From Microbotryum violaceum (Eukaryota), in NCBI GenBank assembly GCA_001244265.2, contig CDLV01000009.1:806001-870000 (forward strand): 64,000 nucleotides of DNA, read 5' to 3'. Shown here piece by piece: positions 24,652-63,128 of the stretch (position 1 is the first letter of the stretch; each line of letters starts with the position of its first letter). The translations under genes and the position numbers were made by a program. Below the pieces are notes generated by a model. The model was not told where the DNA came from, did no database searches, and saw only the letters and a program-made list of their open reading frames with translations.

Positions 24652-25989
24652 ATGCTCAACAACATGTCCTCCTCATCCTCCTCCCACAACCCCTCCAAAG
24701 TCGAACTCAAGCTCACGCTACCTTCGGCCGGCCCTGCGCACCACACCACCACCCGTTTCCTCTCGGTGCCGGCGACCCCTTGCCCGACTTGGGACGACTT
24801 CCTCGTCCTCTTGCGCGAGCGCTTCCAACTCGATGCTTCAACCCCCATCATCGGTGTCACCTACCGTGATACCGAAGGTGACGAGATCCTCCTTTCTTCC
24901 AATGCCGAACTCCAAGATTGGTGGTCGACTTTGACCGCCGGATCGACTTCGACCGACTCCTCCACCATCACCGCCACCGCCACCGCCACCGCCACCACGG
25001 CTCGGATCCTCATCGATGAACAAGCCCAATCCGCCGCGCTGGATGAGGAACAAATTCAACTGCTCGGCGAAGTCAAGTCGATGATTCAAAAAGACCATTC
25101 GTTCGCTCATCGTGTCGGCAAGACCATCGGCGAAGCATTGCACCCCCACCACCACCCCTTTGGCGGTCGCCACAGCCACAGCCACAGCCACGGCCACGGC
25201 CACGGCCCTCCTCCTCCTCCTTTGGGCGGTCCTGGTCGTCACGCTCGTCATGCTCACGGCGCCCGTCATGGTGGTCGCGGCGGTCTCTTCAGCCATAGTC
25301 CTCGTTCTTCCGGCATTTTCGGACCCTCCGGTCTCTTCGGACACTCCGGCTTGTTCGGGCCTCCGGGCCTTCCCTCTTCGTCCTCGTCCTCCAGCTCGTC
25401 CGACTCTGAAACCGACGTCGAAGATGGTCGAAAGGAGAAGCACGGCAAGAAGAAGCAGTACCATTCCGGTGGTCGAAAGCGCGGACACGGTGACCACGGC
25501 AAGCACTCTCGTCTTCGTAAGTATCCCCTATTTGAGGCTTTATTGGGTTCCCATGACTCACTTTCCCCCGCTTTGTTCGCTCGTCGATCGGCTCGTTCGA
25601 ATGTAGCCCATGATCATCATCCTCGAGGACCTCCTTCCCTTCCTCATGCTCCGCCGCACGCACCTCATGAACCCCATGGTCCTCACCCACCTCACGCTCC
25701 TCAACCTCCTTTCCCCTTCATGAATCACGGCGATCATTCTCGTTACAGTCACGGATGCGGGCATGGACATGGACACGGCCACGGCCACCTCGCAGGCTCT
25801 TCTTCGCCCCTTCCTTTCGCCGGACACGACCACAGTCAACCAATGGGCGAGTTGGTCGATCTGGAATTCGAGATGCTCGATTTGGACGAACAAGAACGTG
25901 GACCACACGGCCGAGCTCGTCCTCATCATGGTCATGGACCTCATCGCCATCGTGTCGGAGGTCAGCATGGACTGGGTGGTCCTCATTAG
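24652..25989 (+). CDS. PB1-domain protein with His/Gly/Pro-rich low-complexity C-terminus
   Basis: ORF 24520-25989. PB1 beta1 KVELKLTLP and OPCA motif YRDTEGDEILLSSNAEL. Probable in-frame 90-nt intron at 25517-25606. Confidence 0.8.
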   Translation: MLNNMSSSSSSHNPSKVELKLTLPSAGPAHHTTTRFLSVPATPCPTWDDFLVLLRERFQLDASTPIIGVTYRDTEGDEILLSSNAELQDWWSTLTAGSTSTDSSTITATATATATTARILIDEQAQSAALDEEQIQLLGEVKSMIQKDHSFAHRVGKTIGEALHPHHHPFGGRHSHSHSHGHGHGPPPPPLGGPGRHARHAHGARHGGRGGLFSHSPRSSGIFGPSGLFGHSGLFGPPGLPSSSSSSSSSDSETDVEDGRKEKHGKKKQYHSGGRKRGHGDHGKHSRLRKYPLFEALLGSHDSLSPALFARRSARSNVAHDHHPRGPPSLPHAPPHAPHEPHGPHPPHAPQPPFPFMNHGDHSRYSHGCGHGHGHGHGHLAGSSSPLPFAGHDHSQPMGELVDLEFEMLDLDEQERGPHGRARPHHGHGPHRHRVGGQHGLGGPH

Positions 25990-26439: not shown

Positions 26440-28963
26440 TCACTGAGGGCTCTCACCGCAGCGCCTTTTCCGTCTCGAAACAGGATCGCGCAAGTATCGC
26501 GGATCAAAGTCGAGTTGGGCGCGGTTCCAATCAATAATACAAACCGAGCCATCGCCCCGTAGCAAGATATTTTGATACTCTGCGTCAACGTATTGGATCC
26601 CTTGTTCGTAAAAGACCCGGAAGGCCGCCCTGCGCCAATCGGGTGAGGGGTTGCCGAAAACCCAATAGGGAAGAGTTGCGTCTCAGGTCTTCGTTAGTGG
26701 TGGATTGGCGGTCGGAGGAAGATGACAACACCATCTACGATAGGCCAACACTCACGCCTTCTTTTCTTCAAGTTCGGCGGTCTGGTCTTCGGGCCGGACA
26801 AGACGACCGCCGTATCCCAAGACCAACATCATCGCCTTCCCGTCCGTCGAACGGAACGTGCCATAATAACGAGGGAGAAGTGCTTGAGCTTCGGGAGACA
26901 AAAGCGGGAAAACGTGATCGTAGAAGAGCGATTCGGCAATGATAGAGTCCCAATCGTTCTTGCGGAAGGCTTTGATGACGACGGGATGATCCCAGGGCAT
27001 TCGGCTCTTCCTCGTCTGTAGTCGCATCGTCGAGCTAAGTGTTTGCCCATCATCGAGTTCGACGTTGAGTTTCCGGTTCACCAATCCCCTCTTGGTTGGA
27101 TTCGGAGAGGCATCCAACCTGTGCGCAGATTGCGATCGAGCTCGCCGCGACAGTTTGCCGCCATACACCCACCCCGTCCCGCCAAGAGCAACCAATTTCA
27201 GAAAGTCGAGCACGGGCACGTTACTCGCATTCTCCACACCGAGAGGCGATAAACAAGCTGGCTGTTTGATCCGTTCATGGCGTTGAGCACTGCCACGTTC
27301 CAGATAGGCCACCAAAGATGGAGGAAGAACGCTCAGGCGACGACTCGGTCGGTGCGCACGTCTCGGCTCTTCAGTGGATGGTTTCTCAAACACCTTGAAC
27401 TTGATTGCTTCCATCACGCTTGAATAGTCACCAAGGAATGGCTCCAAACGACCTCGGGTCCTGCAAACGAAGCGTTGCTGGTAATCAGGTGCACAGGACG
27501 CGTGTCAGTCAGTGGGGAGACGAGCCCGAACTGGGGCCAAGGTCCGAGTCGACGCTCACAGGTTGCTTGTTACGGTCGAGTTTGGCCCGCACGGTGAAAT
27601 ACCGGCCATTCCATACTTCAACCGACGATGGGAGTGGCGCCCAACCCGATCCGACTCGATAGGCTCGTTTCCGATCCTGCTTCGAAACGCTCCGAGACCT
27701 CGGTTGCTGAATGTCGACTTTTGGAGCACCGAACAGCCGCGCGATTGTTTCGGGTGGTGGCACCGGTGTATGGCTGAGGTAGCCGACCAATGCCGCGAGA
27801 GCGAGATGCGTCCGGGATCGAGTTTTGAAGCGGAAAGGCATAGGAAGATGGCGTTGTTTCTGGGCTACGTTGTCCCCCGGATCGAGAAGGATCGAAGAAA
27901 ACACGTACCCGACTTCCTGAGCATTTTGCGGGTTCTCGACTTGGGGGGAGCAAGCGTATGGAAGCGAGGTTCAGGATCCTCTTAGAACATATAAATTGGC
28001 GGTGAGGAATGATGCGTCATGCAATGCTAGAGCTCACCCATTTCTGCTAGGACGCTCAGACGCGAGCTCATTATCATGCCGAACCGAGGTGCGCTCAAAA
28101 TCGTCCCTGTCACCGAGTCTCGTAGAATGGCCGATTTCATTGCCACGGCCAGCTACGGGACAAAACATGTCCCGACGCGGTCAGGTCAGTGAACAGCGCC
28201 ATTACTCGTGTTCAAATTGCGGATCCATCTCCAAGTGATTGGACACTTGAGGTCTGACCTTGTTCAACATGGCCTGCGCACCATGACTCTTGCCGTTCGG
28301 GTCGAGCGGAATAGGATCCTCTTGCTCCAGATACACTGCGCATTGGTCCTTGCTCGCGAACAGATTCGGTTGCGGCCCAAATGTCAAGAAGCTAGAGTCG
28401 TGCTCGAAGATGATTGGCAGGCATGAGAGAGCGCCTCGACCTCTCTCGCCGAGAATAAGAGTAATTCCAGCCGGCTGGGAGGCATCGCGGGGGATGAACT
28501 GCAATCTTTTGTGAGTTGGATCCACAGGCGATCCCGACGTCTTGTAGGTGTAATGACGCAGAGCGAAATTGAGAAGGGGTTCGAGCACGCGGATGCGCCA
28601 CTCGTGTATCGTTGCCTCGCACGTTGGCTTCTCGTAGCAGAAAAGGGGATGTGGGGCGTAGTCCAACAGCGCTTCGGCCTTGGCGAGCACCTTGTCCGCC
28701 AGATCGTGTTCCCCAAGAAAGGTGATGAGGGCTTGATGCACACGTTCCTCGAGCGAGATGTCTTGTAATGCCGCAATCGGACGACGTGATCCGGGTGGGA
28801 GTCGTATCCGGGGCTCCAGTTGCTCGCCAACCGCATGGTAGTCAAGGTAGGAGACCCACCTCTCGCGCCAGCCGTACCCGTGCCAAACACTCGGATGATG
28901 CGTTGACGGTAGGAGAGGCGGGTCAGACAGATCGAGTCGAGAGGTTTGAAGAGAAGGCTTCAT
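26440..28963 (-). CDS. Multi-exon protein-kinase-like protein with a putative degenerate restriction-endonuclease-like N-terminal domain
   Basis: Exons from ORFs 28202-29113, 27509-27904 and 26752-27447, plus last exon 26629-26440. Kinase motifs: LGGTGWVYGG, VVIKAF, IIAESLFY, LLPRYYGTF, catalytic-loop-like GIQYVDAEYQNILL and IIDWN. Internal exon boundaries are approximate. Confidence 0.65.
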
Positions 28964-29132
28964 GATCGAAGCGTTATGAAAGCTCCCGTTCGCCGCTCTC
29001 AGTGGACGAGGATTTGAGAGCGAGTTGATCGATTTCAGAGCAAGGATCTGGAATCGCCAACTTATCACCAGCTGGTAAATCGCAGCAGATGGCGCGCTGG
29101 TGGCCAGGGTCACGGTGGCCGCGCAACTGCAC

Positions 29133-29185
29133 AGCGGGATTTGAGTCGAGTTGCAGTATCAGGCATGAAACCCGGCATCCCGTAA
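29133..29185 (-). repeat. B2 terminal repeat (53 bp), identical to B1
   Basis: agcgggatttgagtcgagttgcagtatcaggcatgaaacccggcatcccgtaa occurs at 29133-29185 and 30161-30213. Confidence 0.95.
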
Positions 29186-29323
29186 CAAACGGAATGGGTT
29201 GAAAGAAAGTCCCCACAAGACGAGAGACCCAGAGATCAGAAGAGAGATAATAAAAAGGAAAGAAAAGATACCAGCAAGGACTTTTTTTTTTTTTTTTTTA
29301 GAAGGGTGGGCGGGAGGAGCTCA

Positions 29324-30132
29324 AAAACAGGACACTTTGCTTGGAAAGCGTGGATCCTATTAGTACTCATAAATACTGCAAAGACTGGGAGGCTTGGCAT
29401 ACCTTTGCTTGGACAGCGTGACACACTTGAAAGGAGGGAACCGACCCTGAACGCTGGCACGTTGGGTGGCAAGTGTAGTCTGTAGCGGAAGGTAGCCAAG
29501 TAAGCCAACATGCCCAACAAGGACAGTTGTGAGCAGGAGTACCAAAAGGTAGAGCCTGATGCGGGGGAGTGATGTACCTTAGCTCCGGGAGCGTGACTCG
29601 GTACTCAGGAAAATAAGGTGCGGCTACACTGGCAGGTGTAGGGCAGAAACGGCTGCATACAGGGTATGAACAGTCAGTCAACAATCCAACAAGGAAGGTT
29701 GAGAAGAAGAGGCGTACGCAGTGGGCAGCTGTCCGTCGTAGTCTGGCAGGGCAGAAGACTGGGAGGCAGTTGCGTGTTTGTATCGCTGGGGAGGTCCTGT
29801 GAGATGCTCGGAACCTGTCAGCCAGAAGGCGTGAGGGCAGGAAGAGATCTAGGACGGCAACCAACCTTGGCAGGAGGTGGCAAAGGTACGCAGCGAATAC
29901 TGGTACGGCAACAGCAGGCAGTGCGGAACTGACCCAGTGCGGCGGGAGCGTGCTTGGGGAGATTCCTGCGCGGGTGCAGCTTACGGGCCAAGGCTTATGC
30001 TCGAGGCAGGCGTGCGAGCACGGCTTACTGCGGGAGGCCTGCGTGCGGGCACGGCTTACGGCTGCGGGTGTTGAAGTCGCGCGCGCTAAAGTCCTCAGCG
30101 TCAAACTCTTGCAGCAAAAGCCGAAAAGCGAT
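29324..30132 (-). repeat. A2 direct repeat (809 bp)
   Basis: Matches 35039-35878 apart from one substitution seen (gtgcagc vs gtgcggc) and one fewer 31-bp minisatellite unit. Confidence 0.95.
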
Positions 30133-30160
30133 CAACTCTTTCGTAGAAGCGCGGCTAGGT

Positions 30161-30213
30161 AGCGGGATTTGAGTCGAGTTGCAGTATCAGGCATGAAACC
30201 CGGCATCCCGTAA
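30161..30213 (-). repeat. B1 internal repeat (53 bp)
   Basis: Identical to 29133-29185; lies between the YR stop and A2. Confidence 0.95.
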
Positions 30214-30255
30214 TGTGTATTGTTGTTGATGATCGGGAGATGGAAGATACGGGGT

Positions 30256-31293
30256 TTATGCCGAGCTCAGGAGGGCTTGCTGCAGCTGAGGGGAGACCCG
30301 AACGTAATCCTCCCAAGCAGTGGAGCGCCAGCGACCGAGACGTTTGATGACTTCTGCAGGGAGGCCTCTGAGAGCATAGTGAGTGGCGCCGCCCGAGCGC
30401 AGAGAGTGGCCGCTGTAGCTCGGTCCAAAGGCGCGACGCAGGCGGCTGACAAACCAGGTGCGGGTGGGTGGGAGCCCCGCCTTCGTCACAAACAGGAGCG
30501 GGGAAGTCGGGCACCTTTGATCCCTAGCGTAAAGGTAGCGACGCAGAATAGTGATGAAAACGGGGGCGGTGGTGTTGCAAGTGAAGTAGAGGTACGAGCC
30601 TTGCCAGCGGCGGTCCGCCTTGTGGTACAGTAAATGGACCGAGAACCCACCGTCCTTCATTTGTACGGTACTCCGACGTGGGAGCTTGGCCGGGTCGCGG
30701 AATCGGATTGTTGATGGTAACGCAAGCTCCGCGCTACGAGCGCAGGAGGCAAAGCCCAAGGCGACCATTGCCACGAACAGTAACGAGTCGTAGTCAAGAC
30801 GAGGGTTACTCACTGCCGTGCGAAGCGCGAAAGCGACTGAGCGGAAACTTAGTGGTTTGGCTTGCTTCCGAGGGCGTCGCCACAACTTGATGCCGCCGAC
30901 AATCGTGTTCGTGACTAGTTGCGAGGTGCGAACCCTTTCCCATTCCGTACCGAGCCTTGGGCGAAAGGTGAACGCCAGGCCTGAGAGTGTTTGGGAGACC
31001 GAGGATACCGTCCGATAGCGGTGGCAAATAAAGGCGGAGAGAGTATCCTCAGTGGGGTCGTAGGGTAGGTGGTGGCCCATACTACGATAGTAGGTGATGA
31101 AATCAATCCACTGCCGTAGTGCGCGAGCGTAGTCTGAACGGGTTTTAGGTTCGAGCGCATCGAGGGCGGTTTCGTCGCGCAGGCGACGAAGTTCGCCAAG
31201 TGGAAGCATGGGCTGCGCTCGACGGCCATGCTCCAGGAGAGGACGGGGCGCAAAAGCAAGAATCCGTCCGTCCTCTCGTCTGATAGCGGTCAT
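30256..31293 (-). CDS. Retroelement tyrosine recombinase, 345 aa, catalytic residues intact
   Basis: N-terminal binding domain TRSDYARALRQW. Catalytic R in CARSAEL, K in YHKADR, HxxR in SGHSLRSGGAT, W in LGRWRS and Y in WEDYVR. Confidence 0.95.
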   Translation of the reverse strand: MTAIRREDGRILAFAPRPLLEHGRRAQPMLPLGELRRLRDETALDALEPKTRSDYARALRQWIDFITYYRSMGHHLPYDPTEDTLSAFICHRYRTVSSVSQTLSGLAFTFRPRLGTEWERVRTSQLVTNTIVGGIKLWRRPRKQAKPLSFRSVAFALRTAVSNPRLDYDSLLFVAMVALGFASCARSAELALPSTIRFRDPAKLPRRSTVQMKDGGFSVHLLYHKADRRWQGSYLYFTCNTTAPVFITILRRYLYARDQRCPTSPLLFVTKAGLPPTRTWFVSRLRRAFGPSYSGHSLRSGGATHYALRGLPAEVIKRLGRWRSTAWEDYVRVSPQLQQALLSSA

Positions 31294-33368
31294 AGCAACG
31301 TCCCCTCCAGTCCTGGAATGAAGGGGTCGAATTGCTTGAGGGGATGGAAGCGTTTTAGGAGCTGGTCCTCGTGCAGCCGAGAGAGGTCATCCGCCAGAGT
31401 GTTCTCTTTCCCATGGACGTGGATGACTTTGAGATCGAATTTGCGAAGACGTGCAAGGACGTAGGCCCGAAGGGTTAGAGTGCGAAGGGGCATGAAGTCT
31501 CCATCTCTGGCTGAGCCCGAGTCGATTGCGTAGACCGCCGGCGCCGAGTCCGTTCGCACGAGCACTCGGGAAAGCGGCTTGAAAGGGCTATTGGGGTCCG
31601 TAACAATGGACAAGGCGAGCACTACCGTCAAGGTCTCGGCAAATTGTATTCGTTCGTAGGTTCGCTGCGGTCTGCAGTAGTAGTGATGTACGGTGCCCTT
31701 CCACCGAAGCCAGAAGCCCAAGCCCGCTCCCGAACCAGTATTGTTGCTGAGACATGCGTCAGTGTAGACGACGACATCGGCGTCCTTGAGACCCCACCTT
31801 GTCAGGCTAGGGGCGTCGAGGGGAAGTGAGGGTGATCCCACAAGCAGTGTAGCCATCGCTGCGAGCGCCGTTGCCACTGAGGTGTTGATGTGTACACCCG
31901 CATCCGAGCGTTTCTTGCCGGCGATCTTGTCGTAGAGCGGAGTCAAGTACGGACGGGCCTGGGGTGCGACGTTGAGCGCCCAGCTCAGCCAGCCCGTCAT
32001 TTGGCGCCATTTGCGAAGCGTCGGGTGACGGGTTGGTTCGAGGAGGAAAGCATCAATCTCCGTGATGAGGTCGGATATCGACTTTTCGGGGAGAGATACC
32101 GAGAATGAGGCCAGGTTACACCGAATGCCTGTGATGGTAATACACCTGCCGTGTGGTGCCTTCTCTTGTGAAAGTTTGAAGGGTATCTTCAAGCCGCCCC
32201 ACAGCGTTGCCATCGCTGCTTGCTGGGCCGGGATTATGTGAATCGCCCCATTGTGCGCGAAGGGGACCATTGATCCTCCCAGATCAATCCCGAACGCGTC
32301 GTCCATGTATGCGAGAGGGTGCTCGATGCCAAAGGTGTTGTTGGCCGCCCACATTAGGAGTGACATGAACCTAGTCCAGAGGAACGGCATTGCTCGGCAG
32401 CCAAAGACGCCGCACCATTCAATGTAGTACCAGGTGTGCACGCTGCCGTCGGAAAATTTTCGCTTGATCGCTATGCCTTGTCGCGCCTGCCAACGCTTGG
32501 ACATGACCAAAATTTTGAACACCGAAGAGACGTCGAGCTTCCAGAGGACTGAGCTGTCCGTAAGGAGCTTTGAGGAGAAGCGATGCCAACGAAGCAGGCG
32601 AATGAAATCGATGATAGTATTGTACACCGTCGGACAATCAGATCGTTGGATCCCATCGTTGAGGCCAGAGGAGGTGTGGTCTGCCACCACACGCATCCTA
32701 TGGTTGGCCGATTCGACTACAAAGATCGAATTGTAGGTGACTCCGGGTAGAGGGAACGCGGAGCCCGGGGAGACCCAGCGCTTTGTAACTTCTTCGTCGA
32801 TGGTTGCTTGAATGAAGTTGCGGTGGTGCTCGCTTTTTGGGAACCGTACGGTGGAGGGATCGTCGCCGCGAGCATGACTGCCATCATGCTGTGGCTCAAA
32901 TCCGTCCGTACGGAAAGCGGAGATGAAGGAGTTGACCAGGATCAAGTTGGGGTGCTCTGCCAGAAGCCGCCCCAAATATCGATCGTCAATCGTTCGAGTG
33001 AAATTGAATTGAGAGGGATAAAGTCGTTGAGTTTCCGCGATGGTTGCGAGTCGCTCGACGGTGAAGGATGCGCGAGCGAGTGGTCCTGGGAGCCTGCCCA
33101 GCGACGAAGTCGAAGAAAAGAGAGGAGTGGTTGGGTAGTCTTTCGAGGGTGTGTCGAAGTGGAATTGCCTCTGGTACCTGGGTGCCAGCCCGAGGCCCGA
33201 AAGGTGAGAGAGAGAGGGATGGCCCGGAGGTCCATTGTCGTCTGACATGACGACCGATGGCGACGACTCGTCCGGGGTTAGTGAGTCGACGCCGTCCTCA
33301 AGGTATCTACTGCCGAGAGGCAGAACCAGCCGCTGATCCGGCCGCTGCCACGACAAGACGTCCTCCAT
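31290..33368 (-). CDS. Retroelement reverse transcriptase + RNase H, 692 aa
   Basis: RT motifs MRVVADH, WKLDVSSVF, FGCRAMPFLW and YMDD. DIRS-type RNase H motifs VYTDAC, FAETL, VRTDS and VIHVHGKENTLADDLSR. Confidence 0.95.
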   Translation of the reverse strand: MEDVLSWQRPDQRLVLPLGSRYLEDGVDSLTPDESSPSVVMSDDNGPPGHPSLSHLSGLGLAPRYQRQFHFDTPSKDYPTTPLFSSTSSLGRLPGPLARASFTVERLATIAETQRLYPSQFNFTRTIDDRYLGRLLAEHPNLILVNSFISAFRTDGFEPQHDGSHARGDDPSTVRFPKSEHHRNFIQATIDEEVTKRWVSPGSAFPLPGVTYNSIFVVESANHRMRVVADHTSSGLNDGIQRSDCPTVYNTIIDFIRLLRWHRFSSKLLTDSSVLWKLDVSSVFKILVMSKRWQARQGIAIKRKFSDGSVHTWYYIEWCGVFGCRAMPFLWTRFMSLLMWAANNTFGIEHPLAYMDDAFGIDLGGSMVPFAHNGAIHIIPAQQAAMATLWGGLKIPFKLSQEKAPHGRCITITGIRCNLASFSVSLPEKSISDLITEIDAFLLEPTRHPTLRKWRQMTGWLSWALNVAPQARPYLTPLYDKIAGKKRSDAGVHINTSVATALAAMATLLVGSPSLPLDAPSLTRWGLKDADVVVYTDACLSNNTGSGAGLGFWLRWKGTVHHYYCRPQRTYERIQFAETLTVVLALSIVTDPNSPFKPLSRVLVRTDSAPAVYAIDSGSARDGDFMPLRTLTLRAYVLARLRKFDLKVIHVHGKENTLADDLSRLHEDQLLKRFHPLKQFDPFIPGLEGTLL

Positions 33369-34592
33369 GTTGGAGGTGACGGTTCAGGCAGACAGCACTA
33401 TTAGCTGCGTGCCCACCCTTGCAAGATGAGCAGATATGCCTATAAAGGCAGTCCTCCTCAATGTGGTTCTCGCCTCTGTTGAACCTTTTGCAGGCGTTGT
33501 TGCGCTTTTTCTTGGGTGGGATTGAACCCTGACGAGAGTGCGATGAGGAGCCGCGGTTCGCCGCAGGCGGGCCCTCATTGCGAAAGGGAGTCGTCTGAGC
33601 TAGCCACCTGCTGATCAGTTTCGCGTAGACACTGTCGCCTAGATGCGCGTCGAGCAGCGAGTGGACCAACTTGTCGGGTCGGCGAGCTGTTTACGGTATT
33701 CGTCGTCGTAGAGAACCATGAAGTCAAAACCCAGTTGGGAGTCCTTCGCCAGCTCGCGTAGGAAGCGCGTGTAGTGCTTCCAATCCCGGCCTTGGTGATA
33801 GTTGAAGACCACCCCTTCAAGTCGTTCGAGTTCCATTAAAGCTTCGGTGTGTCCAGCATACGAGAGCGTCTTCTTGGGAAGGGACGCTTTCGATTGGATC
33901 ATAGCTTCGATCCCGTAGAACTTGCTACCGGAGGAGTGCTGGAACATATAGAACAAATCCGAGGGTGCGGGATTGTCGGCATCAACAGCGCTCACGAATT
34001 GGCCGGTAAGGACCTTCATGATTTCGATGACGTCGAGTTTGAGACCGTGGTTCTTTTTGAGGGTAGCTGCCTGTTTGTCCAGTCGGTAGACGTGCGAGCG
34101 GTGGAAAGTCAGGGCTTCCTTGTACATGTCTTCCTTATCCCTTCGCTTGAGGACGTAGTCGGGGAGCTCGGAGTAGGCCGTTGGGGGAATCGCCAAGGTC
34201 TGTTCGTACATCCGCGCTGCCTTGTCCCGATCCTGAGTGGGTGACATGGAAGAAGGGGCGTCCTCGTCGTCTGTGTCTTCGTCCTGGCGCGAGCGAGTAC
34301 CGCGAGCGAGCGCGGAAGGGCGGTACGCGGTTGGAGCCCGACGGGTCGAAGGGACGGGTAAGCTTTTCTTCTTCTTCCTGGCCTGAGGAGCAAGTCGATT
34401 AAGTTGCGCCATTAGCTCTTCACGTTGGGCTTCCTCCGAAGTTTCGTCGGCGGATTCCTCCTCGGTGTCCCACTGGTCGTCCTCCCGAGTAGGGCGCTTC
34501 AGATGCTTCGAAGCACGAAGAGCCGCAGGAGTCGCGGCCGGTGCGGTGACGGTAACGATCCATCCTCGAGGCAGGGAGGAGTACTTGTACAT
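33307..34592 (-). pseudogene. Retroelement gag-like ORF, apparently frameshifted near 33650-33670, with C-terminal zinc fingers
   Basis: ORF 33639-34592 (...YDDEYRKQLADPTSW) continues in another frame as ORF 33307-33669, which carries CKRFNRGENHIEEDCLYRHICSSCKGGH. The latter overlaps the RT ORF start. Confidence 0.75.
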
Positions 34593-35038
34593 GACGCAGC
34601 ACGCCGTGTCGCATCTATTCGAGGATTGGGGGACCTACTAATGTATGCCCCAGCGAACTCGACACCGATCACGACGGACGTCTCATCGTGCGCTCCAACC
34701 TGTTCATCGAAGGCGAACTTCCTTTATCTTCATACTTGTACATCACCTCATCGCCGGCAGGCAATGAAGATAAAGGAAGTTCGCCTTCGATGAACAGGTT
34801 GGAGCGCACGATGAGACGTCCGTCGTGATCGGTGTCGGCGACTCCTGCGGCTCTTCGTGCTTCGAAGCATCTGAAGCGCCCTACTCGGGAGGACGACCAG
34901 TGGGACACCGAGGAGGAATCCGCCGACGAAACTTCGGAGGAAGCCCAACGTGAAGAGCTAATGGCGCAACTTAATCGACTTGCTCCTCAGGCCAGGAAGA
35001 AGAAGAAAAGCTTACCCGTCCCTTCGACCCGTCGGGCT
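34335..35038. repeat. Nested perfect inverted repeat (fold-back duplication)
   Basis: 34335-34535 is the reverse complement of 34838-35038 (201 bp). 34660-34733 is the reverse complement of 34764-34837 (74 bp). Loop 34734-34763 is 30 nt. Confidence 0.95.
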
Positions 35039-35878
35039 AAAACAGGACACTTTGCTTGGAAAGCGTGGATCCTATTAGTACTCATAAATACTGCAAAGAC
35101 TGGGAGGCTTGGCATACCTTTGCTTGGACAGCGTGACACACTTGAAAGGAGGGAACCGACCCTGAACGCTGGCACGTTGGGTGGCAAGTGTAGTCTGTAG
35201 CGGAAGGTAGCCAAGTAAGCCAACATGCCCAACAAGGACAGTTGTGAGCAGGAGTACCAAAAGGTAGAGCCTGATGCGGGGGAGTGATGTACCTTAGCTC
35301 CGGGAGCGTGACTCGGTACTCAGGAAAATAAGGTGCGGCTACACTGGCAGGTGTAGGGCAGAAACGGCTGCATACAGGGTATGAACAGTCAGTCAACAAT
35401 CCAACAAGGAAGGTTGAGAAGAAGAGGCGTACGCAGTGGGCAGCTGTCCGTCGTAGTCTGGCAGGGCAGAAGACTGGGAGGCAGTTGCGTGTTTGTATCG
35501 CTGGGGAGGTCCTGTGAGATGCTCGGAACCTGTCAGCCAGAAGGCGTGAGGGCAGGAAGAGATCTAGGACGGCAACCAACCTTGGCAGGAGGTGGCAAAG
35601 GTACGCAGCGAATACTGGTACGGCAACAGCAGGCAGTGCGGAACTGACCCAGTGCGGCGGGAGCGTGCTTGGGGAGATTCCTGCGCGGGTGCGGCTTACG
35701 GGCCAAGGCTTATGCTCGAGGCAGGCGTGCGAGCACGGCTTACTGCGGGAGGCCTGCGTGCGGGCACGGCTTACAGCGAGAGGCCTGCGTGCGGGCACGG
35801 CTTACGGCTGCGGGTGTTGAAGTCGCGCGCGCTAAAGTCCTCAGCGTCAAACTCTTGCAGCAAAAGCCGAAAAGCGAT
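35039..35878 (-). repeat. A1 5' direct repeat (840 bp) containing a 3 x 31-bp minisatellite (35713-35805)
   Basis: Near-identical to 29324-30132; identity stops at ...ccgaaaagcgat (35878). Confidence 0.95.
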
Positions 35879-36247
35879 TATTGCAAAGTCCCAAGATCAA
35901 GCAAGCAGGTACACTCCAGTGGATCCGGCCATGTCCGAAGAGCGGAACACTTGTCACTCGGCGCTACCCCCACTTTTCACTTGTAACTCGGGATCTGCGC
36001 TTACAGCTGCTTACAATGCTTAATCCGCCTATGGCAGCCGGTTGGGCATCGGGTTCGCGCTCGCTCAAAAGCGCTCAAACAAGTGGAGGTGCGCGATCGC
36101 TGTCGATCGCTGGGCTCCACATTAGCTCCACATCATGGACGACTCGAAGCGACTCTCGGTCTGCCTTCCATTCCCACTCTCTTTCTTCTTCCTCCATCAC
36201 ACTCTCACTCCACACTTTCAAACCCCCGAACACCTACCTCTGCTACC

Positions 36248-37859
36248 ATGCCCTCCCTGTCTCAACCTCGCAAGATCGCTGATGTGCTTGTCGGTCCTTT
36301 GGGATACGGTCAGTCCCCTCGTCCTGAACCGTCCCCTCACGTCATGTTTCCGAGCTCCGTCATCGTCAGCCATCTTCACTCAACTCAGGTGCAGCGAAAC
36401 TGACCTCGTTCTTTCTTTCGCTCTATTCGTATTACAACAACCCATTCCATCATCCTCTCCTCGTCACTCGATGATCCTCTCCGACCTCTCCGCAGGCGCG
36501 ATGAACATGACGTGGAAACCCGAGGCTCAACACACCCCGGACGAGCAAGCGTTCGAGACGTTGAAGACCGCGATCGATGCTGTTCCCAAAGAGGCCAAGG
36601 CATTCATCAACTGTGAGCATTTCTGTTTTCAGATTTCACATCGAGTAGCAACGCTTATCTCTGTGCTGATTTTTTTACTTCGCAGCCGGAGAATTCTACG
36701 GACAACCGAAGAGGGAGTTGAACCTCGAACTGCTGGCAAGTCGGTATCTCCTTCTATAAGCGGCTTCAAGAAACACCAAGTCTTACCCTCTTTCGTTATA
36801 ACCAGGCTCGCTTCTTCAAGAAATTCCCCGATTACTCGGACCGAGTCTTTCTCTCGGTCAAGGCCGGTATGACGCTCGAGATGAAACCCGACTCGAGCCT
36901 CGAGGCGCTTCGTAAAAAGTGAGCTCTCATTTGAGGCATCCCTCAGCTCATCTGATTCTGCGGACTTGAGGGGACTAAACTATTCCGAATTTTGGGTACA
37001 ATTAGCTGTGAGAACATCAACAAGCACCTCGGTGGTCGCAAGATGGACTTGTTCGAGCCGGCTCGTGTGGACACCATCCGACCGATCGAGGAGGTCAGTA
37101 TTTGTCGAGGATGAAGTTTTCAAAGAAAGTCTTGATATGGTTCCCTAAGCTGACGTAAACCACACCACACCACACCACAGACGATGCGGAACCTCAAAAC
37201 TCTTCAAAAAGAAGGCCACTTTGCTTACATCGGTCTATCCGAGACCGCTCCGGCGACCCTCCGTCGCGCCGCGAAAGTAGGCCCCGTCGCAGCCGTCGAA
37301 GTCGAATACTCCCCCTGGTCAACCCAAGACATCGAAGGTCCCGACGGCATCATCGAAACCTGTCGTGAACTAGGCATCACCATGATCGCTTATTCACCCC
37401 TTGGTCGAGGCTTCATCACGGGAACGATCAAGAGTCGTGCGGATCTCCCCGAAGGGGATTCGAGGTTACATTTGGATCGTTTCTCGGAGGAGAACTTTAA
37501 AAATAATTTGAAGTTGGTGGAAAAGTTGGAAAAGATCGCGCAGGAGAAGGGGTGTACGGTCACGCAGTTGGCGTTGGCGTGGAACTTGAGTCAGGCCGAC
37601 TTTATTGTGCCTATTCCGGGATCGGTGAGTTGGAGGCGTGCTTCAGGATGGAAAGAGTTGACAGGGGCCACTAGGAAACTCAAGCTCGTGATCCGTCATC
37701 ATCACACAGACCCGACCCGAAGGCGTCAAAGAAGGTCTTGGAGCCCTCCAAGTCGACCTGAACTCACAAGACCTCGATGCGATTCGTGAAGTTATCGATA
37801 GCGTCACCGTTGTTGGAGGTCGCTACAACAAGCACATCGATGCTCATTCAATGAAGTAG
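36248..37859 (+). CDS. Aldo-keto reductase (pyridoxal reductase / AKR13-like), multi-exon
   Basis: GPLGYG|AMNMTW, EFYG, LSVKAG, YIGLSE, AVEVEYSPW, IAYSPLGRGF, QLALAW and VPIPGS; ends GGRYNKHIDAHSMK*. Confidence 0.92.
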
Positions 37860-45342: not shown

Positions 45343-48300
45343 TCACACTGCAGAATAGGAATAGGCGTTGATCAGCACTCATTCTTCGGTGAGGAACAAA
45401 ACTAGAAACGCGGGACTTACGATCATCGCAGACGGCGCAGTTCTTCAAATTGATCTTATTCTTGAAGATAATCTGCGAGGATTGCGCGAAGGCCCATGTC
45501 AGCCAGCATGCTCAACGCCATGACAATGGACCGCCAAGCAAGACTCACGGGCAAGACGATCAGGCAAGTGAAGAACGCAAAGACGAGACCGAACAAGACG
45601 CTGTACTTGGCGACGATGGTCTTGCGTAGTGCGCGTTGCTTGAAACTGAAGATGGGACTGCGGATCTGCTTCGACGGTCGCAGCCAGACTGAAAGGATGT
45701 GGCCGGATCAGTCAGTGGTCCAAGCAGGTCTCACTTCAAAGCTTACAGAGCGCAGTTGAATGAAGCGTGTCCATGCCCGGGATCAAGCACGGAAGGACGA
45801 GCAAGAACAAGAGCAAGTGCTGCAGGGCAAGGGAAGGGCGAGTCACACGTCAGCCCATTGCAGGCGATCTTACTGTCGCGGCCTCACCGTTACTTACTCC
45901 GGACAAGAAGTCGGCAGCAAAGAGCGACAGCTCGATGATCTTGACCATGTATTCTCGGAACGGTTGCGACCAAGCAGAGGACCCGAGACCGCGGCCGAAC
46001 CATCGCCCGGTCCAGAACGCGCGGTTCGTCTCGTCGTGCTTGAACTCGCGGGAAATGCAGACCGAGATGAGGATTTTGAACAGACACCTCTGGATAGCAA
46101 CGGTCGCGATGATGCCCAAGACGGCGTGGGACACATCCCATCGCTCGAGCAACCATAAGAATTCGAAGAAGGCCACGTAGCCGACGACACTGCCGATGTG
46201 GGCGATGCCGGCCATAACGGATCCAAAGTTGCCGCAGCAGCTGCCGAGAACAGGACCAGCTAGCAGCGCCGATAAGAAGAGGACGAGAAGCAGGACGGCA
46301 TTCCATGCGACGGGACCGATGGCGATGACGGCAACTCGAAGCAACGCATTGATGGGTGGGTCAGAGAACGACTGGAGAAGAAGAGACAAGGTCGCGTCAG
46401 GAAAAAGTCACAATATTTACGAAACTCTGTCACCGACTAGGCCAGCTCTACTCACCTTTACGAAGAGGTAAGCGATGGTCAAGATGACGGCCAAGGCCAA
46501 GGGCGCGAACACTTCGTTGACGAGGATGACCTTCCAGCTGACGCGGGGGACGTCAGCCGTGAGCTTCTCGGAGGGGTGACCCAAGCGCTTCTTCTTGAAA
46601 CCGGTGATCTTGGTGCGAGACAAACGGCAGTACCCGATCCACGAGTTGGCGTGGGCTCGCGAGTTCCCTCGCGACATCCAGCGCAGGTATTCGCGGTAAT
46701 CGATGATGAAGTCGCCAAAGGAGAATTGATGAGGGTTGAAGAGGAAGGGGGCAATGCAAAGGGCTAGAATGGAGATCCAGAAGTAGAGCACTGCAGCGGA
46801 GTGAAGCAAAGATCACACTGTCAGAGCGTCAATCGAGTGGAATGACCGGAGCGAGCGACGTACAGTGCCATAGCCAAACAGTCAACGTAATGTAGAGGAG
46901 CATCATGAGCGTGCGCAATCCAAGGTAGACACTAGGTCCTGCAAAACGCGAGTATAGAATGGCAAAAGACACGCGTGTTGTCGCAAAGCCGCGACCCGTG
47001 GCAATGTAGCGAGCACCACCGTACGTCAAATTGCTGAGGATCGAGTGCGACGAAATCTGCGTGCCGAACACCTCGAAAACGGGTGACAGTGAGATGAACT
47101 GCTTGCCGAGACGAGTGATAGCCGCAAGGACACCGTGACCGGTTAACTCTTGGAGGAACAGGGGCAGGAAAGCTAGGGATAGAGCAGGATAAAAGGTATC
47201 AGCGGGTGGTCAAGAGAGTTCCCAAACCGGGGAATCGGGCTCACCGATGAAGAACACAATGAAGATGGAGATGACGCAGCGCTTGATCCAGTCGAACGTG
47301 GGCACAATGTTGTAGCAACCCGCAGCAGAGATGAATTGACCGGCGGCGTTGTACTGACAGACCGTGAGCTGCTTGTTCATGGTGCCCAGAAATACGAGCG
47401 CGAACATGAAGAGCTGGACCGAAAGGATAACGAGGATATTGTTGATGTGGAAACCTGGTGGGAGCAGCATAGAATTTGGCTCGTTGAACATGCAACTCCA
47501 ACAGCCAGAGGAATCAGAAGACACGTACCAGGATGACCGTAATAGAACGTCAAGAAGCGATCCATGGGCAATTGCGTGCCGAGGTAGTAGTACTCGCGCG
47601 AAAGCATCTGCTCGCCCATACCACTCCCAATCTTGGTCTGGAAATTGAGAATTGTTCCAAACCCGAGATCTCGACCTTTACCGCATTGGTAGTACTCAGT
47701 GTGCTTGATGCGACCTCCTCGACCAAACGCGGTCATACCAGCGTAAATATCCTCGTTCAGGTGCAGACCTTTCTGCGCCTTCGAGACACCACCTCGCGTG
47801 GTCATGAAGATGGCGTTGAGGAAATCGGGATGCCCGTAGTGGAGCTTTCCGCCGATGTAGGCCATTGACCGTGCCGCGAGCGTACCGAACGTCTGTTCCT
47901 TACCGGCCGCGACGTCACCGAGGATACCGATGTTCTCGGAGAAGATGTATTCGCGAGCTCCAACGATCGCGACCGGGTCATCCGCGAAGTCGTCGGCCCC
48001 CTCGGCAGTGTACGGGTTGCGCGACGAGATGTGGTAGTCCTCGAACTCGCCGAGGATGTTGCGCACCTTGAGGCACTCTTCGAGGTAGTTGTCTTGATTC
48101 GCATCGATAAGTTGCAGGTACTCGCCGCGGTAGAAGACGATGGCGTGATTCTGATTATCTGATTTGCCGTCACCAAGTATAGGGTTTCCTGGTAGCTCGA
48201 TGCGGAACTTGGGTCGACGCTTGCCATCTGGGAGGATCTCGGAGTGGCCATCGATGAGCGAAGAGAAGATGCGGGGCTCGCCACCTTCCTTGCGTGGGCG

Positions 48301-62400: not shown

Positions 62401-63128
62401 GAGCTGGGGCAACCCGGAAATGGCGATACACGTCGATGTCACAGATAAGACACTCGGGGCACTTAATCAAGTGACCACTCGGATCCAGATCTGAAAATCG
62501 CATAGATCCAGCGAGAGCAGCACGCGAGGCGAAACGCCAAAGTCGGGCCGGCCCGCCAGGCGTGGAGGACATGATAGCCACAGGACGCACGCACACGCAT
62601 CGCATCGCATCGGGATAGCATGGCGAACCTTCGATGACGGAACACTGTCGCGCATCATCATCACTACATTGACGGCATTCCATCCCAGCAGCCAGCGCAC
62701 TTCGGTGGGCAAATCGGCTCGGTCGATCCGGCTCGCTTCGACGGAGTCGTCGCAGTTCGACCGTGCTTGGGTGCTCGGGTGCTGGGGCTGCTGCAGCAGC
62801 AGACGAAGGCCGGTGCCGCGCACGATATACCAAGAGCACACACAAAGGCTCACACCACACTCCCCACACAGGCTCGACAGCGCAAGCTGCAACTCACCTC
62901 GATTGTACCGTTCTCGCCTTGTTCGCGAACGACAAACCCTTCGCCGGTGGCTTTCTCGGCGACAATCGTCGTCACCGTCGGGTTCGAGGGCAGCGACGAG
63001 GTCGAGGACGACGCGTTGGCGGGCTCAGCAGCGCTCGAGGCCTGCTCGGGACCCGGGGCCGAGGACGTCGACAACGCGGGGTCTACAGCATCCTGGGCAA
63101 CAGCGGAGGACGGATCGGTCGACAACAT
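56475..63128 (-). CDS. CHD/Mi-2-family SNF2 chromatin remodeller (PHD fingers, chromo-like domains, helicase), Mit1-like; 5' exon uncertain
   Basis: PHD-like CGRC...CSVCIDVYHYQCL and FRCSKCRRASHYECL; chromo YLVKWQGSSY; ILADEMGLGKT, VVDEGQRLK, LLSGTPLNNN, LLSTRAGGVGINL and QAISRAHRIGQ. Confidence 0.9.

What the first reader, a model, noticed from the sequence alone, without database searches (positions are those of the whole stretch)
34335..35038. Fold-back hairpin inside a YR retrotransposon: candidate 'killer' (self-silencing) allele
Seen: reading the element strand from the A1 repeat, the sequence runs antisense gag (201 bp), antisense leader (74 bp), a 30-nt loop, sense leader, 124 nt found only in the sense arm, then sense gag. 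Both stems look perfectly matched, giving about 275 bp of potential dsRNA. The duplication abuts A1 at a short gct microhomology, where A1 stops matching A2. Known: maize Mu killer is an inverted duplication of a transposon end whose hairpin transcript silences the family in trans, and many fungi process hairpins through Dicer/Argonaute. Inference: transcription from A1 would make a gag-specific hairpin RNA that could silence all copies of this Ngaro family, while RT and YR stay intact downstream. A template switch during replication or reverse transcription is a plausible origin. I know of no such allele described for fungal YR elements, but could not search.
Basis: partly seen in the sequence, partly recalled or inferred. 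Interest (0 to 1): 0.85.

Follow-up and report, generated by a model that had tools for sequence, protein, structure and literature searches.

The report
Scrambled 5' end of one Ngaro retrotransposon
One copy of a tyrosine-recombinase retrotransposon in an anther-smut fungus carries a perfect nested palindrome at its 5' end that other copies of the family lack; it could make hairpin RNA, but nothing yet shows that it is expressed or silences anything.

Summary
The palindrome is real in the window: 201-bp and 74-bp arms, both 100% matched, with a 30-nt loop. It lies at the 5' end of a minus-strand Ngaro element at 29133-35875, with A1, gag, RT/RH, YR, B1, A2 and B2. The host is Microbotryum lychnidis-dioicae or very close kin.

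Contigs of 4 of 4 public runs show a non-palindromic 5' region for this family, so the palindrome is not a family feature. The leader copy next to A1 is the native one. The copy next to gag, plus 67 of the "124 sense-only" bases, is inverted.

Two of those four runs have an empty site at this locus. None of the 20 holder runs holds more than 0.82 of the sampled words, close to the 0.85 expected if the four window-specific junctions are absent.

This copy also has a 1-base frameshift in gag. Best reading: a strain-specific, defective copy scrambled by serial template switching. The hairpin-silencer idea is geometrically possible, and the species has Dicer, Argonaute and RdRP. It remains untested, and the junctions could not be checked against the source reads.

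The parts
29133..35875 (-). Whole Ngaro-type YR retrotransposon insertion. The right end is ambiguous by 3 nt (35875-35878) because GAT is shared with the flank.
   Evidence: Repeat layout. Empty-site contigs in X1 and X9 join window 29107-29132 to 35876 onward with 4 other letters (GACA) between.
35039..35875 (-). A1 repeat, the presumed promoter-bearing 5' repeat.
   Evidence: Matches A2 (29324-30132) at 96.2% over 840 columns, i.e. one 31-nt indel plus about 1 substitution. X1 contigs cover 35039-35855 with 0 differences. Contigs of X1, X9 and X14 break within 1-7 nt of 35039, so this is the natural end of A.
34838..35038 (-). Inverted copy of gag nt 58-258. It reads antisense on the element strand and is the outer stem's 5' arm.
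   Evidence: 100% reverse complement of 34335-34535.
34764..34837 (-). Leader block L (74 nt) in native orientation; the inner stem's 5' arm.
   Evidence: In X14 a contig runs 34733-34837 contiguous with gag. In X1, X9 and X13 the same arrangement appears as the joint 34592->34733 on opposite strands, with 20 nt between.
34744..34763 (-). Native 20-nt spacer that directly precedes the gag ATG in unrearranged copies (first two thirds of the 'loop').
   Evidence: A 20-nt gap separates the two pieces of X1 record 1 and X9 record 23. X14 record 16 reads straight through it. That the 20 nt are this sequence in X1 and X9 is inferred.
34734..34743 (-). Duplicate of gag nt 1-10 (last third of the 'loop'). 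With 34733 it forms an 11-nt direct repeat of 34582-34592.
   Evidence: Sequence read. The X14 joint 34581->34733 'skips 151, both 11'.
34660..34733 (-). Inverted copy of L; the inner stem's 3' arm.
   Evidence: 100% reverse complement of 34764-34837. Its orientation is opposite to that in 4 of 4 runs.
34593..34659 (-). U: 67 nt of upstream leader, inverted relative to unrearranged copies. It is single-copy in the window and forms most of the unpaired bulge.
   Evidence: Pieces '+34591..34733' lie in contigs whose gag part is on the '-' strand (X1, X9, X13). Three private differences from all or most runs sit at 34639, 34643 and 34647.
33639..34592 (-). gag ORF as it stands (317 aa). Nt 58-258 (34535-34335) is the outer stem's 3' arm. 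The ORF is cut short by a frameshift.
   Evidence: The N-terminus MYKYS... is shared with P0061 of M. silenes-dioicae.
33675..33675 (-). One-base deletion in a G/C run. It puts the C-terminal zinc-finger part of gag (33674-33307) out of frame.
   Evidence: 'Put in behind 33675: G' in 4 of 4 runs. P0061 and P0062 need a frame change from -3 to -2 at 33675-33678 on the window. P0001 continues into a Cys/His-rich tail.
31290..33368 (-). ORF2, RT/RNase H, 692 aa, open.
   Evidence: YMDD at residues 354-357 is invariant in 12 of 12 aligned relatives. Pfam RNase_H E = 4e-4, below its cut-off. 1 of 16 relatives carries PF00078.
30256..31293 (-). ORF3, tyrosine recombinase, 345 aa, open.
   Evidence: Pfam Phage_int_SAM_4 E = 0.0012 and Phage_integrase E = 0.021. 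XerC-like chain 4a8e_A E = 0.0035 over residues 247-336. HSLRSGGAT and GRWRS...Y stretches are present (reading them as the YR catalytic motifs is recalled).
30161..30213 (-). B1 repeat.
   Evidence: 100% identical to 29133-29185.
29324..30132 (-). A2 repeat.
29133..29185 (-). B2 repeat, the element's 3' end.

Best explanation
This is a young, strain-specific and defective copy of a Ngaro-type YR retrotransposon of Microbotryum lychnidis-dioicae or very close kin. Its 5' untranslated region was scrambled in one replicative accident.

Unrearranged copies read A1 - X (several hundred nt) - U - L - 20 nt - gag. This copy reads A1 - [gag 258->58 inverted] - [L - 20 nt - gag 1-10, native] - [L and U inverted] - gag 1->. 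That requires four switches of template polarity with 0-2 nt of microhomology, loss of X, and an 11-nt direct repeat around the inner insert.

The most likely cause is serial template switching of a polymerase. It could be the element's own RT working on single-stranded cDNA, or a stalled replication or repair fork. The outermost junction lies exactly at the natural end of A1, where the element's replication is thought to change templates anyway.

The product is a nested palindrome that would fold into about 275 bp of perfect duplex if transcribed from A1. The gag start codon would sit in the internal bulge, so the copy should be untranslatable. It is additionally frameshifted in gag.

Shown: the structure, its absence from other copies, the empty site in other strains, and the frameshift. 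Inferred: the mechanism of origin, transcription from A1, and any effect on RNAi.
For: The palindrome is perfect and is the only one in the 64 kb. The fold has z = -55.

Unrearranged form: it appears in 4 of 4 runs from 4 studies. The joint '34592->34733 opposite strands' is in X1, X9 and X13. In X14, 'skips 151, both 11' plus '34651->34837 opposite strands' describe the same order. A k=31 contig cannot jump an 11-nt repeat, so these contigs report real sequence that the window lacks. The last 30 nt of upstream leader seen as a loose end in X13 and X14 are absent from the window (0 matches with up to 3 mismatches).

Empty site: X1 record 7 (9346 nt, depth 45) and an X9 loose end run from 35876 into sequence that matches window 29107-29132. 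In X1 the internal part has depth 341 against 45 for the flank, so about 7-8 copies carry the unrearranged form.

Word share: the best is 0.82, in 11 of 20 holder runs. The expected share is 0.85 if words over the 4 junctions and the private SNP cluster are missing.

Youth: A1 and A2 differ by one indel and about 1 substitution, B1 equals B2, and the arms are identical despite 15 (outer) and 7 (inner) TCG/CGA sites per arm.

Assembly quality: a neighbouring 6.6-kb host gene shows no frame breaks other than at intron-sized gaps, and its last exon is 375 of 375 identical to MVLG_01216. The copy has private substitutions, so it was assembled from locus-specific data.

DIRS-1 cDNA intermediates are single-stranded and mostly linear (PMC7192593, abstract), which would allow fold-back copying.
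Against: No read or contig from any run bridges any of the four window-specific junctions: 0 of 4 runs in the tables shown (93 pieces and 13 loose ends were not shown). The source reads were not available, so reality in the source strain is unproven. Contigs drop rare variants, so absence elsewhere in those genomes is not shown.

The sequence of X and of the native A1|X junction was not seen, so microhomology at the outer junction cannot be judged. Four switches in about 450 nt is an unusually complex event. The two indels relative to other runs (33675, 34647) are both in homopolymers, a pattern that long-read consensus errors also give.
Confidence: 0.6

Rival explanations
1. Assembly or library artefact. 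The palindrome was created by chimeric fold-back molecules or by mis-joining of reads from several copies of the repeat, and does not exist in the strain's DNA.
For: No independent data set holds the junction words (best share 0.82). 0 of 4 laid runs bridge a junction. Fold-back chimeras are a known long-read and amplification artefact (recalled). Both indels against other runs are homopolymer-length differences.
Against: The structure has four precise junctions nested inside a correctly flanked element with intact A1, B1, A2 and B2, unlike a single kb-scale fold-back. The surrounding assembly looks clean. The copy carries private substitutions as well as indels. The absence of junction words elsewhere is fully explained by the empty site in X1 and X9.
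Confidence: 0.22
2. Functional 'killer' allele. The copy is transcribed from A1, the RNA folds into the 201 + 74 bp duplex, Dicer makes siRNAs from gag nt 58-258 and from L, and these silence the roughly 7-8 other family copies in trans. The structure would be real, so this overlaps with the best explanation.
For: Fold of -662 kcal/mol. A1 is identical to the consensus of other copies and the outer stem is identical to family gag in X1 and X9. RdRP, 2 Argonautes and Dicer are present and expressed in M. lychnidis-dioicae (PMC4469406, passages). The YR retrotransposon DIRS-1 is held in check by RNAi in Dictyostelium (PMC7192593, abstract). Mu killer is a precedent (PMC3440606, abstract start in the listing).
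Against: There are no data on transcription, small RNAs, methylation or family activity in carriers against non-carriers. The transcription start site within A1 is unknown. The insertion looks very recent, so no population signal can be expected. A dead-on-arrival copy needs no function to explain it.
Confidence: 0.12
3. Normal structural element of the family, comparable to the inverted repeats and internal complementary region of DIRS-type elements.
For: YR retroelements of the DIRS type do carry inverted terminal repeats (PMC3783388, passages).
Against: 4 of 4 runs show family copies without it. 0 of 3 related metagenomic loci with 2 kb or more upstream of RT have an inverted repeat of 30 nt or more. 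The arms contain gag coding sequence. The element has the Ngaro A-B-A-B layout, not ITRs.
Confidence: 0.02

Closest known systems
Mu killer of maize (partial inverted duplication of MuDR)
   Same: An accidental inverted duplication of the 5' part of a transposon, including coding sequence, able to form a long hairpin RNA matching active copies (PMC3440606, abstract start seen in the listing; the original description is recalled).
   Different: Mu killer derives from a DNA transposon, has a hairpin of about 4 kb, is transcribed by read-through from a flanking gene, and has genetically proven heritable silencing. Here the element is a YR retrotransposon and the duplex is about 275 bp, inside an otherwise full-length copy behind its own A1 repeat. 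There is no functional evidence.
DIRS-1 of Dictyostelium and its RNAi control
   Same: A YR retrotransposon restrained by RdRP/Argonaute-dependent RNAi. dsRNA arises from the element's own architecture (PMC7192593, abstract; PMC4482531, abstract start in the listing).
   Different: In DIRS-1 the dsRNA comes from bidirectional transcription driven by the two inverted terminal repeats that every copy has. Here the palindrome is private to one rearranged Ngaro copy, and Ngaro elements have direct split repeats.
Inverted duplications made by alternative transposition of Ac/Ds that start siRNA silencing
   Same: A transposition accident creates an inverted duplication of element sequence that triggers silencing of the family (bioRxiv 10.1101/2020.01.07.897926, abstract start in the listing).
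   Different: That is a DNA transposon in a plant, with demonstrated silencing. The mechanism is alternative transposition rather than polymerase template switching.
5'-inverted LINE-1 insertions (twin priming) and microhomology-mediated template-switch rearrangements (FoSTeS/MMBIR)
   Same: Rearranged 5' ends or nested inverted duplications with short or no microhomology, produced while a polymerase copies the element (recalled; no paper read here).
   Different: L1 twin priming gives one inversion junction at a target-primed insertion. Here there are four polarity switches in a YR element that is thought to integrate by recombination.

Membership tests
Ngaro (YR retrotransposon) | Terminal repeats in A - internal - B - A - B order (PMC3783388, passages) | tested here: met
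   A1 35039-35878 matches A2 29324-30132. B1 30161-30213 equals B2 29133-29185. B1 lies 28 nt from A2.
Ngaro (YR retrotransposon) | Reverse transcriptase in the pol ORF | tested here: inconclusive
   There is no Pfam RVT_1 hit for ORF2 up to E = 5 and no PDB sequence hit. However, YMDD is invariant in 12 of 12 aligned relatives, 1 of 16 relatives carries PF00078, and one has the UniRef name 'Reverse tra...'.
Ngaro (YR retrotransposon) | RNase H domain after RT | tested here: inconclusive
   Pfam RNase_H E = 4.2e-4, 21 bits against a cut-off of 25.8, at residues 530-617.
Ngaro (YR retrotransposon) | Tyrosine recombinase ORF instead of a DDE integrase | tested here: met
   The hits are weak but concordant. 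Phage_int_SAM_4 E = 0.0012 and Phage_integrase E = 0.021. XerC-like 4a8e_A E = 0.0035 over the catalytic C-terminus. H-x-x-R and a terminal Y context are present in the sequence (motif reading recalled).
Ngaro (YR retrotransposon) | No Dam-like methyltransferase domain (distinguishes Ngaro from DIRS) | tested here: met
   No such Pfam hit in ORF2 or ORF3 at E up to 5.
Mu killer-type hairpin silencer locus | Inverted duplication of transposon sequence matching active copies | tested here: met
   201-bp arms equal gag nt 58-258, with no differences from the X1/X9 family contigs listed.
Mu killer-type hairpin silencer locus | Transcribed through both arms into one hairpin RNA | not testable with these tools
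   No RNA holder is listed. Only contigs could be laid, and they cannot show starts or strands.
Mu killer-type hairpin silencer locus | siRNAs from the stems and Dicer/Argonaute in the host | not testable with these tools
   The machinery is reported for M. lychnidis-dioicae p1A1 Lamole (PMC4469406, passages). No genome is held for the window. No Microbotryum small-RNA study surfaced in the listing.
Mu killer-type hairpin silencer locus | Dominant, heritable trans-silencing of intact copies | not testable with these tools
   Needs crosses and expression assays.
DIRS-type built-in inverted repeats (ITR/ICR) | The same inverted repeat present in all functional copies of the family | tested here: not met
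   4 of 4 runs show copies without it. 0 of 3 related loci have one.

The most novel reading that the evidence does not exclude
A natural Mu killer-like allele in a fungus. A Ngaro retrotransposon copy, scrambled by its own error-prone replication, expresses from its own A1 repeat a 275-bp gag/leader hairpin that feeds the Microbotryum Dicer/Argonaute pathway and silences the family in trans. Because the insertion is present in one strain and absent (empty site) in others, it would be a segregating self-made suppressor, testable by simple crosses.
Probability: 0.12. Interest if true: 0.8.

Novelty: new variant of a known kind. Interest (0 to 1): 0.4.

Why it matters
If the structure is real, it is a cleanly dated accident. 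The same family provides unrearranged copies, and other strains provide an empty site, so both the origin and the consequences can be studied in a natural presence/absence polymorphism.

How transposon silencing is first triggered is an open question. Well-documented triggers come mainly from plants. A hairpin-bearing copy in a fungus with an expressed RNAi pathway would allow a direct test. It would also be a test in the YR retrotransposon class, whose founding member DIRS-1 is known to be RNAi-controlled.

Independently of silencing, the outer junction lies exactly at the A1 boundary. That offers a rare footprint of where Ngaro replication switches templates, a step that has only been modelled.

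If the structure is an assembly artefact, the finding has no biological value.

Tried and rejected
**Data that could not be obtained**
- No whole genome is held for the window, so other copies in the source genome could not be examined.
- No RNA holder is listed among the runs. The runs marked 'RNA?' are guesses and were not used as evidence of expression.
- PDB sequence searches with ORF2 alone and with a 12-sequence profile gave no RT hit.
- An exact 35-nt search of metagenome contigs for the leader block found nothing.
- Earlier-findings look-ups by place, sequence and words returned nothing.

**Observations not used as evidence**
- Zero depth over 34838-35038 is no evidence. Contigs containing that sequence were placed on the identical other arm.
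- X13 and X14 do not cover the right flank, so their state at this locus cannot be told.

**Ideas rejected**
- The 124-nt one-arm segment is not an intron missing from a cDNA-derived arm. It has no GT...AG ends on the element strand in any register that reproduces the junction. It contains the gag ATG. Other runs show that 67 of its bases are inverted leader.
- A simple inversion between short inverted repeats does not fit. The window keeps L-20 nt-gag1-10 in native order next to the inverted L, which requires duplication and not only inversion.
- A second truncated element inserted head-to-head does not fit, because the L'|gag58 adjacency is not a family adjacency.

**Literature searches**
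- Searches were: Microbotryum + Ngaro (3 papers); DIRS, tyrosine recombinase, hairpin, siRNA, retrotransposon (67 papers, 15 listed); Mu killer, inverted duplication, hairpin, fungi (77, 15 listed); Microbotryum small RNAs; retrotransposon, inverted duplication, hairpin RNA, template switching (22, 10 listed).
- No listed title or abstract start describes such an allele in a fungal YR element. Only listings were read and supplements are closed, so this is weak evidence of absence from print.
Full report

Yes, in the assembled sequence. The repeat finder and a self-BLAST give two perfectly complementary arm pairs. The first is 34335-34535 with 34838-35038 (201 nt). The second is 34660-34733 with 34764-34837 (74 nt). 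The central loop is 30 nt (34734-34763), and 124 nt (34536-34659) are present on one side only.

A minus-strand self-BLAST of the whole 64-kb window returns only these matches (3 of 3 hits). Chance is therefore not an issue. As RNA, the element strand 35070->34300 folds at -662 kcal/mol, against -276 +/- 7 for 20 shuffles (z = -55).

**2. Context**

The palindrome sits at the 5' end of a minus-strand element with these parts:
- A1, 35878-35039
- gag ORF, 34592-33639
- ORF2, 33368-31290
- ORF3, 31293-30256
- B1, 30213-30161
- A2, 30132-29324
- B2, 29185-29133

This is the A-internal-B-A-B order that defines Ngaro elements (PMC3783388, passages).

ORF2 has an invariant YMDD (12 of 12 aligned relatives) and a sub-threshold RNase H hit. 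Pfam does not detect RVT_1 in it, and PDB sequence searches found no RT. ORF3 gives weak but concordant tyrosine-recombinase hits. No methyltransferase domain is found.

The gag and RT relatives are almost all from Microbotryum and other Microbotryomycetes. A neighbouring SNF2/Mit1-like host gene is 375 of 375 identical in its last exon to MVLG_01216 of M. lychnidis-dioicae. It is about 99% identical to the M. silenes-dioicae orthologue. The window is therefore from M. lychnidis-dioicae or a very close relative. No whole genome is held for it.

**3. What other genomes show**

Twenty public runs hold part of 34200-35300. The best share of sampled 31-mers is 0.82, reached by 11 runs. I laid contigs of four runs from four studies (X1, X9, X13, X14) on 33600-36000. 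Three results follow.

(a) *The family's normal 5' region is not palindromic.* In X1, X9 and X13 one contig carries window + strand 34591-34733, then 20 nt, then the minus strand from 34592 down through gag. The table lists this as the joint '34592->34733, opposite strands'. In X14 a contig runs on the + strand from gag to 34581 and jumps to 34733-34837 ('skips 151, both 11'). It then continues on the opposite strand from 34651. Both describe the same order on the element strand: ...X - U (the complement of the order seen at 34593-34659) - L - 20 nt - ATG gag. A k=31 contig cannot cross an 11-nt repeat by accident, so this is real sequence that the window lacks.

In X1 this form has depth 341, against 45 for single-copy flank. 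About 7-8 copies therefore share it. The last 30 nt of the upstream leader X, seen as a loose end in X13 and X14, do not occur in the window.

(b) *The locus is empty in other strains.* X1 record 7 (9346 nt, depth 45) and an X9 loose end continue leftward from 35876. They run into sequence that matches window 29107-29132, followed by four other letters, GACA. The whole 6.7-kb element is thus an insertion polymorphism. X13 and X14 do not cover the flank, so nothing can be said for them.

(c) *No contig shown bridges any junction that is specific to the window.* These junctions are 34592/93, 34733/34, 34837/38 and 35038/39. If the words over these four junctions and over a private SNP cluster (34639-34648) were missing, the expected share would be 0.85. 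This is close to the observed 0.82. It is a rough consistency check, not a proof.

**4. Corrected anatomy**

On the element strand the copy reads as follows:
- A1
- inverted gag nt 258->58 (35038->34838)
- native L (34837->34764)
- native 20-nt spacer (34763->34744)
- native gag nt 1-10 (34743->34734)
- inverted L (34733->34660)
- inverted U, 67 nt (34659->34593)
- gag from nt 1 (34592->)

The blocks alternate inverted, native, inverted, native. The 'loop' is the native sequence around the start codon. The '124 nt' is 57 nt of gag plus 67 nt of inverted leader.

The inner event looks like a 140-nt inverted copy of the adjacent leader. It is inserted at the start codon and flanked by an 11-nt direct repeat, TACTTGTACAT, at 34582-34592 and 34733-34743. 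Microhomology is 2 nt (AT) at one junction and 1 nt (T) at the other. The outer event replaces X and U by an inverted copy of gag nt 58-258.

The outer junction lies at 35039. There, contigs of X1, X9 and X14 also break within 1-7 nt. It is therefore the natural end of the A repeat. The proper comparator is the native A1|X junction, which was not visible.

**5. State of the copy**

A1 is identical to the other strains' contigs over 35039-35855. A1 and A2 differ by one 31-nt indel and about one substitution. B1 equals B2. The palindrome arms are identical although they contain 15 and 7 TCG/CGA sites. The statement that TCG is the preferred target of Microbotryum's RIP-like mutation is recalled. 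All this points to a young copy.

The copy is nevertheless defective. It lacks one G of a G-run at 33675 that 4 of 4 runs have. At that point P0061 and P0062 change frame on the window, while P0001 continues into a Cys/His-rich tail. The gag zinc-finger part is therefore out of frame. ORF2 and ORF3 are open.

The surrounding assembly shows no frame breaks in a 6.6-kb host gene apart from intron-sized gaps. The frameshift is therefore more likely real than a consensus error. It is, however, a homopolymer-length difference, so an error cannot be excluded.

**6. Most likely explanation (confidence about 0.6)**

This is a real, recent, dead-on-arrival or early-damaged Ngaro copy. Its 5' region was rebuilt by four successive switches of template polarity during one round of synthesis.

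Two settings are possible. One is reverse transcription. The abstract of PMC7192593 reports single-stranded, mostly linear cDNA for DIRS-1, which would permit fold-back and inter-molecular copying. The other is a stalled replication or repair fork after insertion. The outer junction coincides with the A1 boundary, a place where the replication model requires a template change (model recalled). That makes me favour the reverse-transcription setting slightly. All of this paragraph is inference from junction anatomy.

**7. Rivals**

- *Artefact (about 0.22).* No independent data contain the junctions, and I could not see the source reads. Against it are the four precise nested junctions, the intact repeats and flanks, the private substitutions, and a clean neighbourhood.
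- *Functional killer allele (about 0.12; it presupposes a real structure).* The geometry is right and the stem matches family gag exactly. RdRP, two Argonautes and a Dicer are present and expressed in M. lychnidis-dioicae (PMC4469406, passages). There is no evidence of transcription, siRNAs or silencing. A defective copy needs no function.
- *Normal family structure (about 0.02).* Contradicted, and by 0 of 3 related metagenomic loci having any inverted repeat of 30 nt or more.

**8. Comparison with known systems**

It works like, or could work like, Mu killer. It also resembles the inverted duplications that start Ac/Ds silencing (abstract starts seen in the listing). It is not shown to be a member of that functional class, because three of the four defining features (a hairpin transcript, siRNAs and trans-silencing) could not be tested.

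It differs from DIRS-1. There, dsRNA comes from inverted terminal repeats present in every copy (listing; abstract).

In my searches (listings only, supplements closed) no title or abstract start describes a hairpin-bearing copy of a fungal YR retrotransposon.

**9. Verdict**

The finding is a new variant of a known kind (transposon-derived inverted duplication) and needs read-level confirmation.

Interest is moderate (0.4). It is a well-posed natural experiment if real, but nothing yet separates it from an inert rearranged copy.

Noticed in passing
window 29132/29133 and 35875/35876: The empty-site contigs of X1 and X9 carry four letters (GACA) between the two flanks that the occupied site lacks, and there is no target-site duplication. 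This fits recombinase-type integration rather than staggered-cut integration. GAT at 35876-35878 is shared by the flank and the end of A.
   Followed up: partly
window 29186-29323: A 138-nt spacer lies between the end of the A2 homology and B2. It contains a run of 19 T on the + strand (A19 on the element strand, about 29285-29303). It has no counterpart next to A1 in this copy.
   Followed up: no
window 35713-35878 vs 29998-30132: A1 carries a 31-nt indel relative to A2. Contigs of X1 and X13 show further length variants here (joints 35746->35822 and 35746->35836, with 13 and 30 letters between). This part of the A repeat is therefore length-polymorphic among copies.
   Followed up: no
window 34639-34648 and 33668-33699: The private differences of this copy from the other runs are clustered. 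Three lie within 10 nt in the inverted U block and three within 32 nt around the gag frameshift. One of them (33668) is a TCG->TTG change on the element strand.
   Followed up: partly
window 36135-37789 (+) and 28202-29113 (-): The element sits in a short region of about 280 nt (in the empty allele) between two divergently oriented ORFs. One of them belongs to an aldo/keto reductase gene (PF00248, E = 1e-29). The insertion may affect their promoters.
   Followed up: partly
window 544-5308, 47377-51123, 56478-63128: Host genes nearby are the dynein heavy chain C-terminal part, the FKS1 1,3-beta-glucan synthase, and an SNF2/Mit1-like chromodomain helicase (orthologue of MVLG_01216).
   Followed up: partly
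window 24969-25227: Short CAC/GGC-type hexamer or trimer repeat runs lie inside an ORF with a PB1 domain (24652-25989).
   Followed up: no
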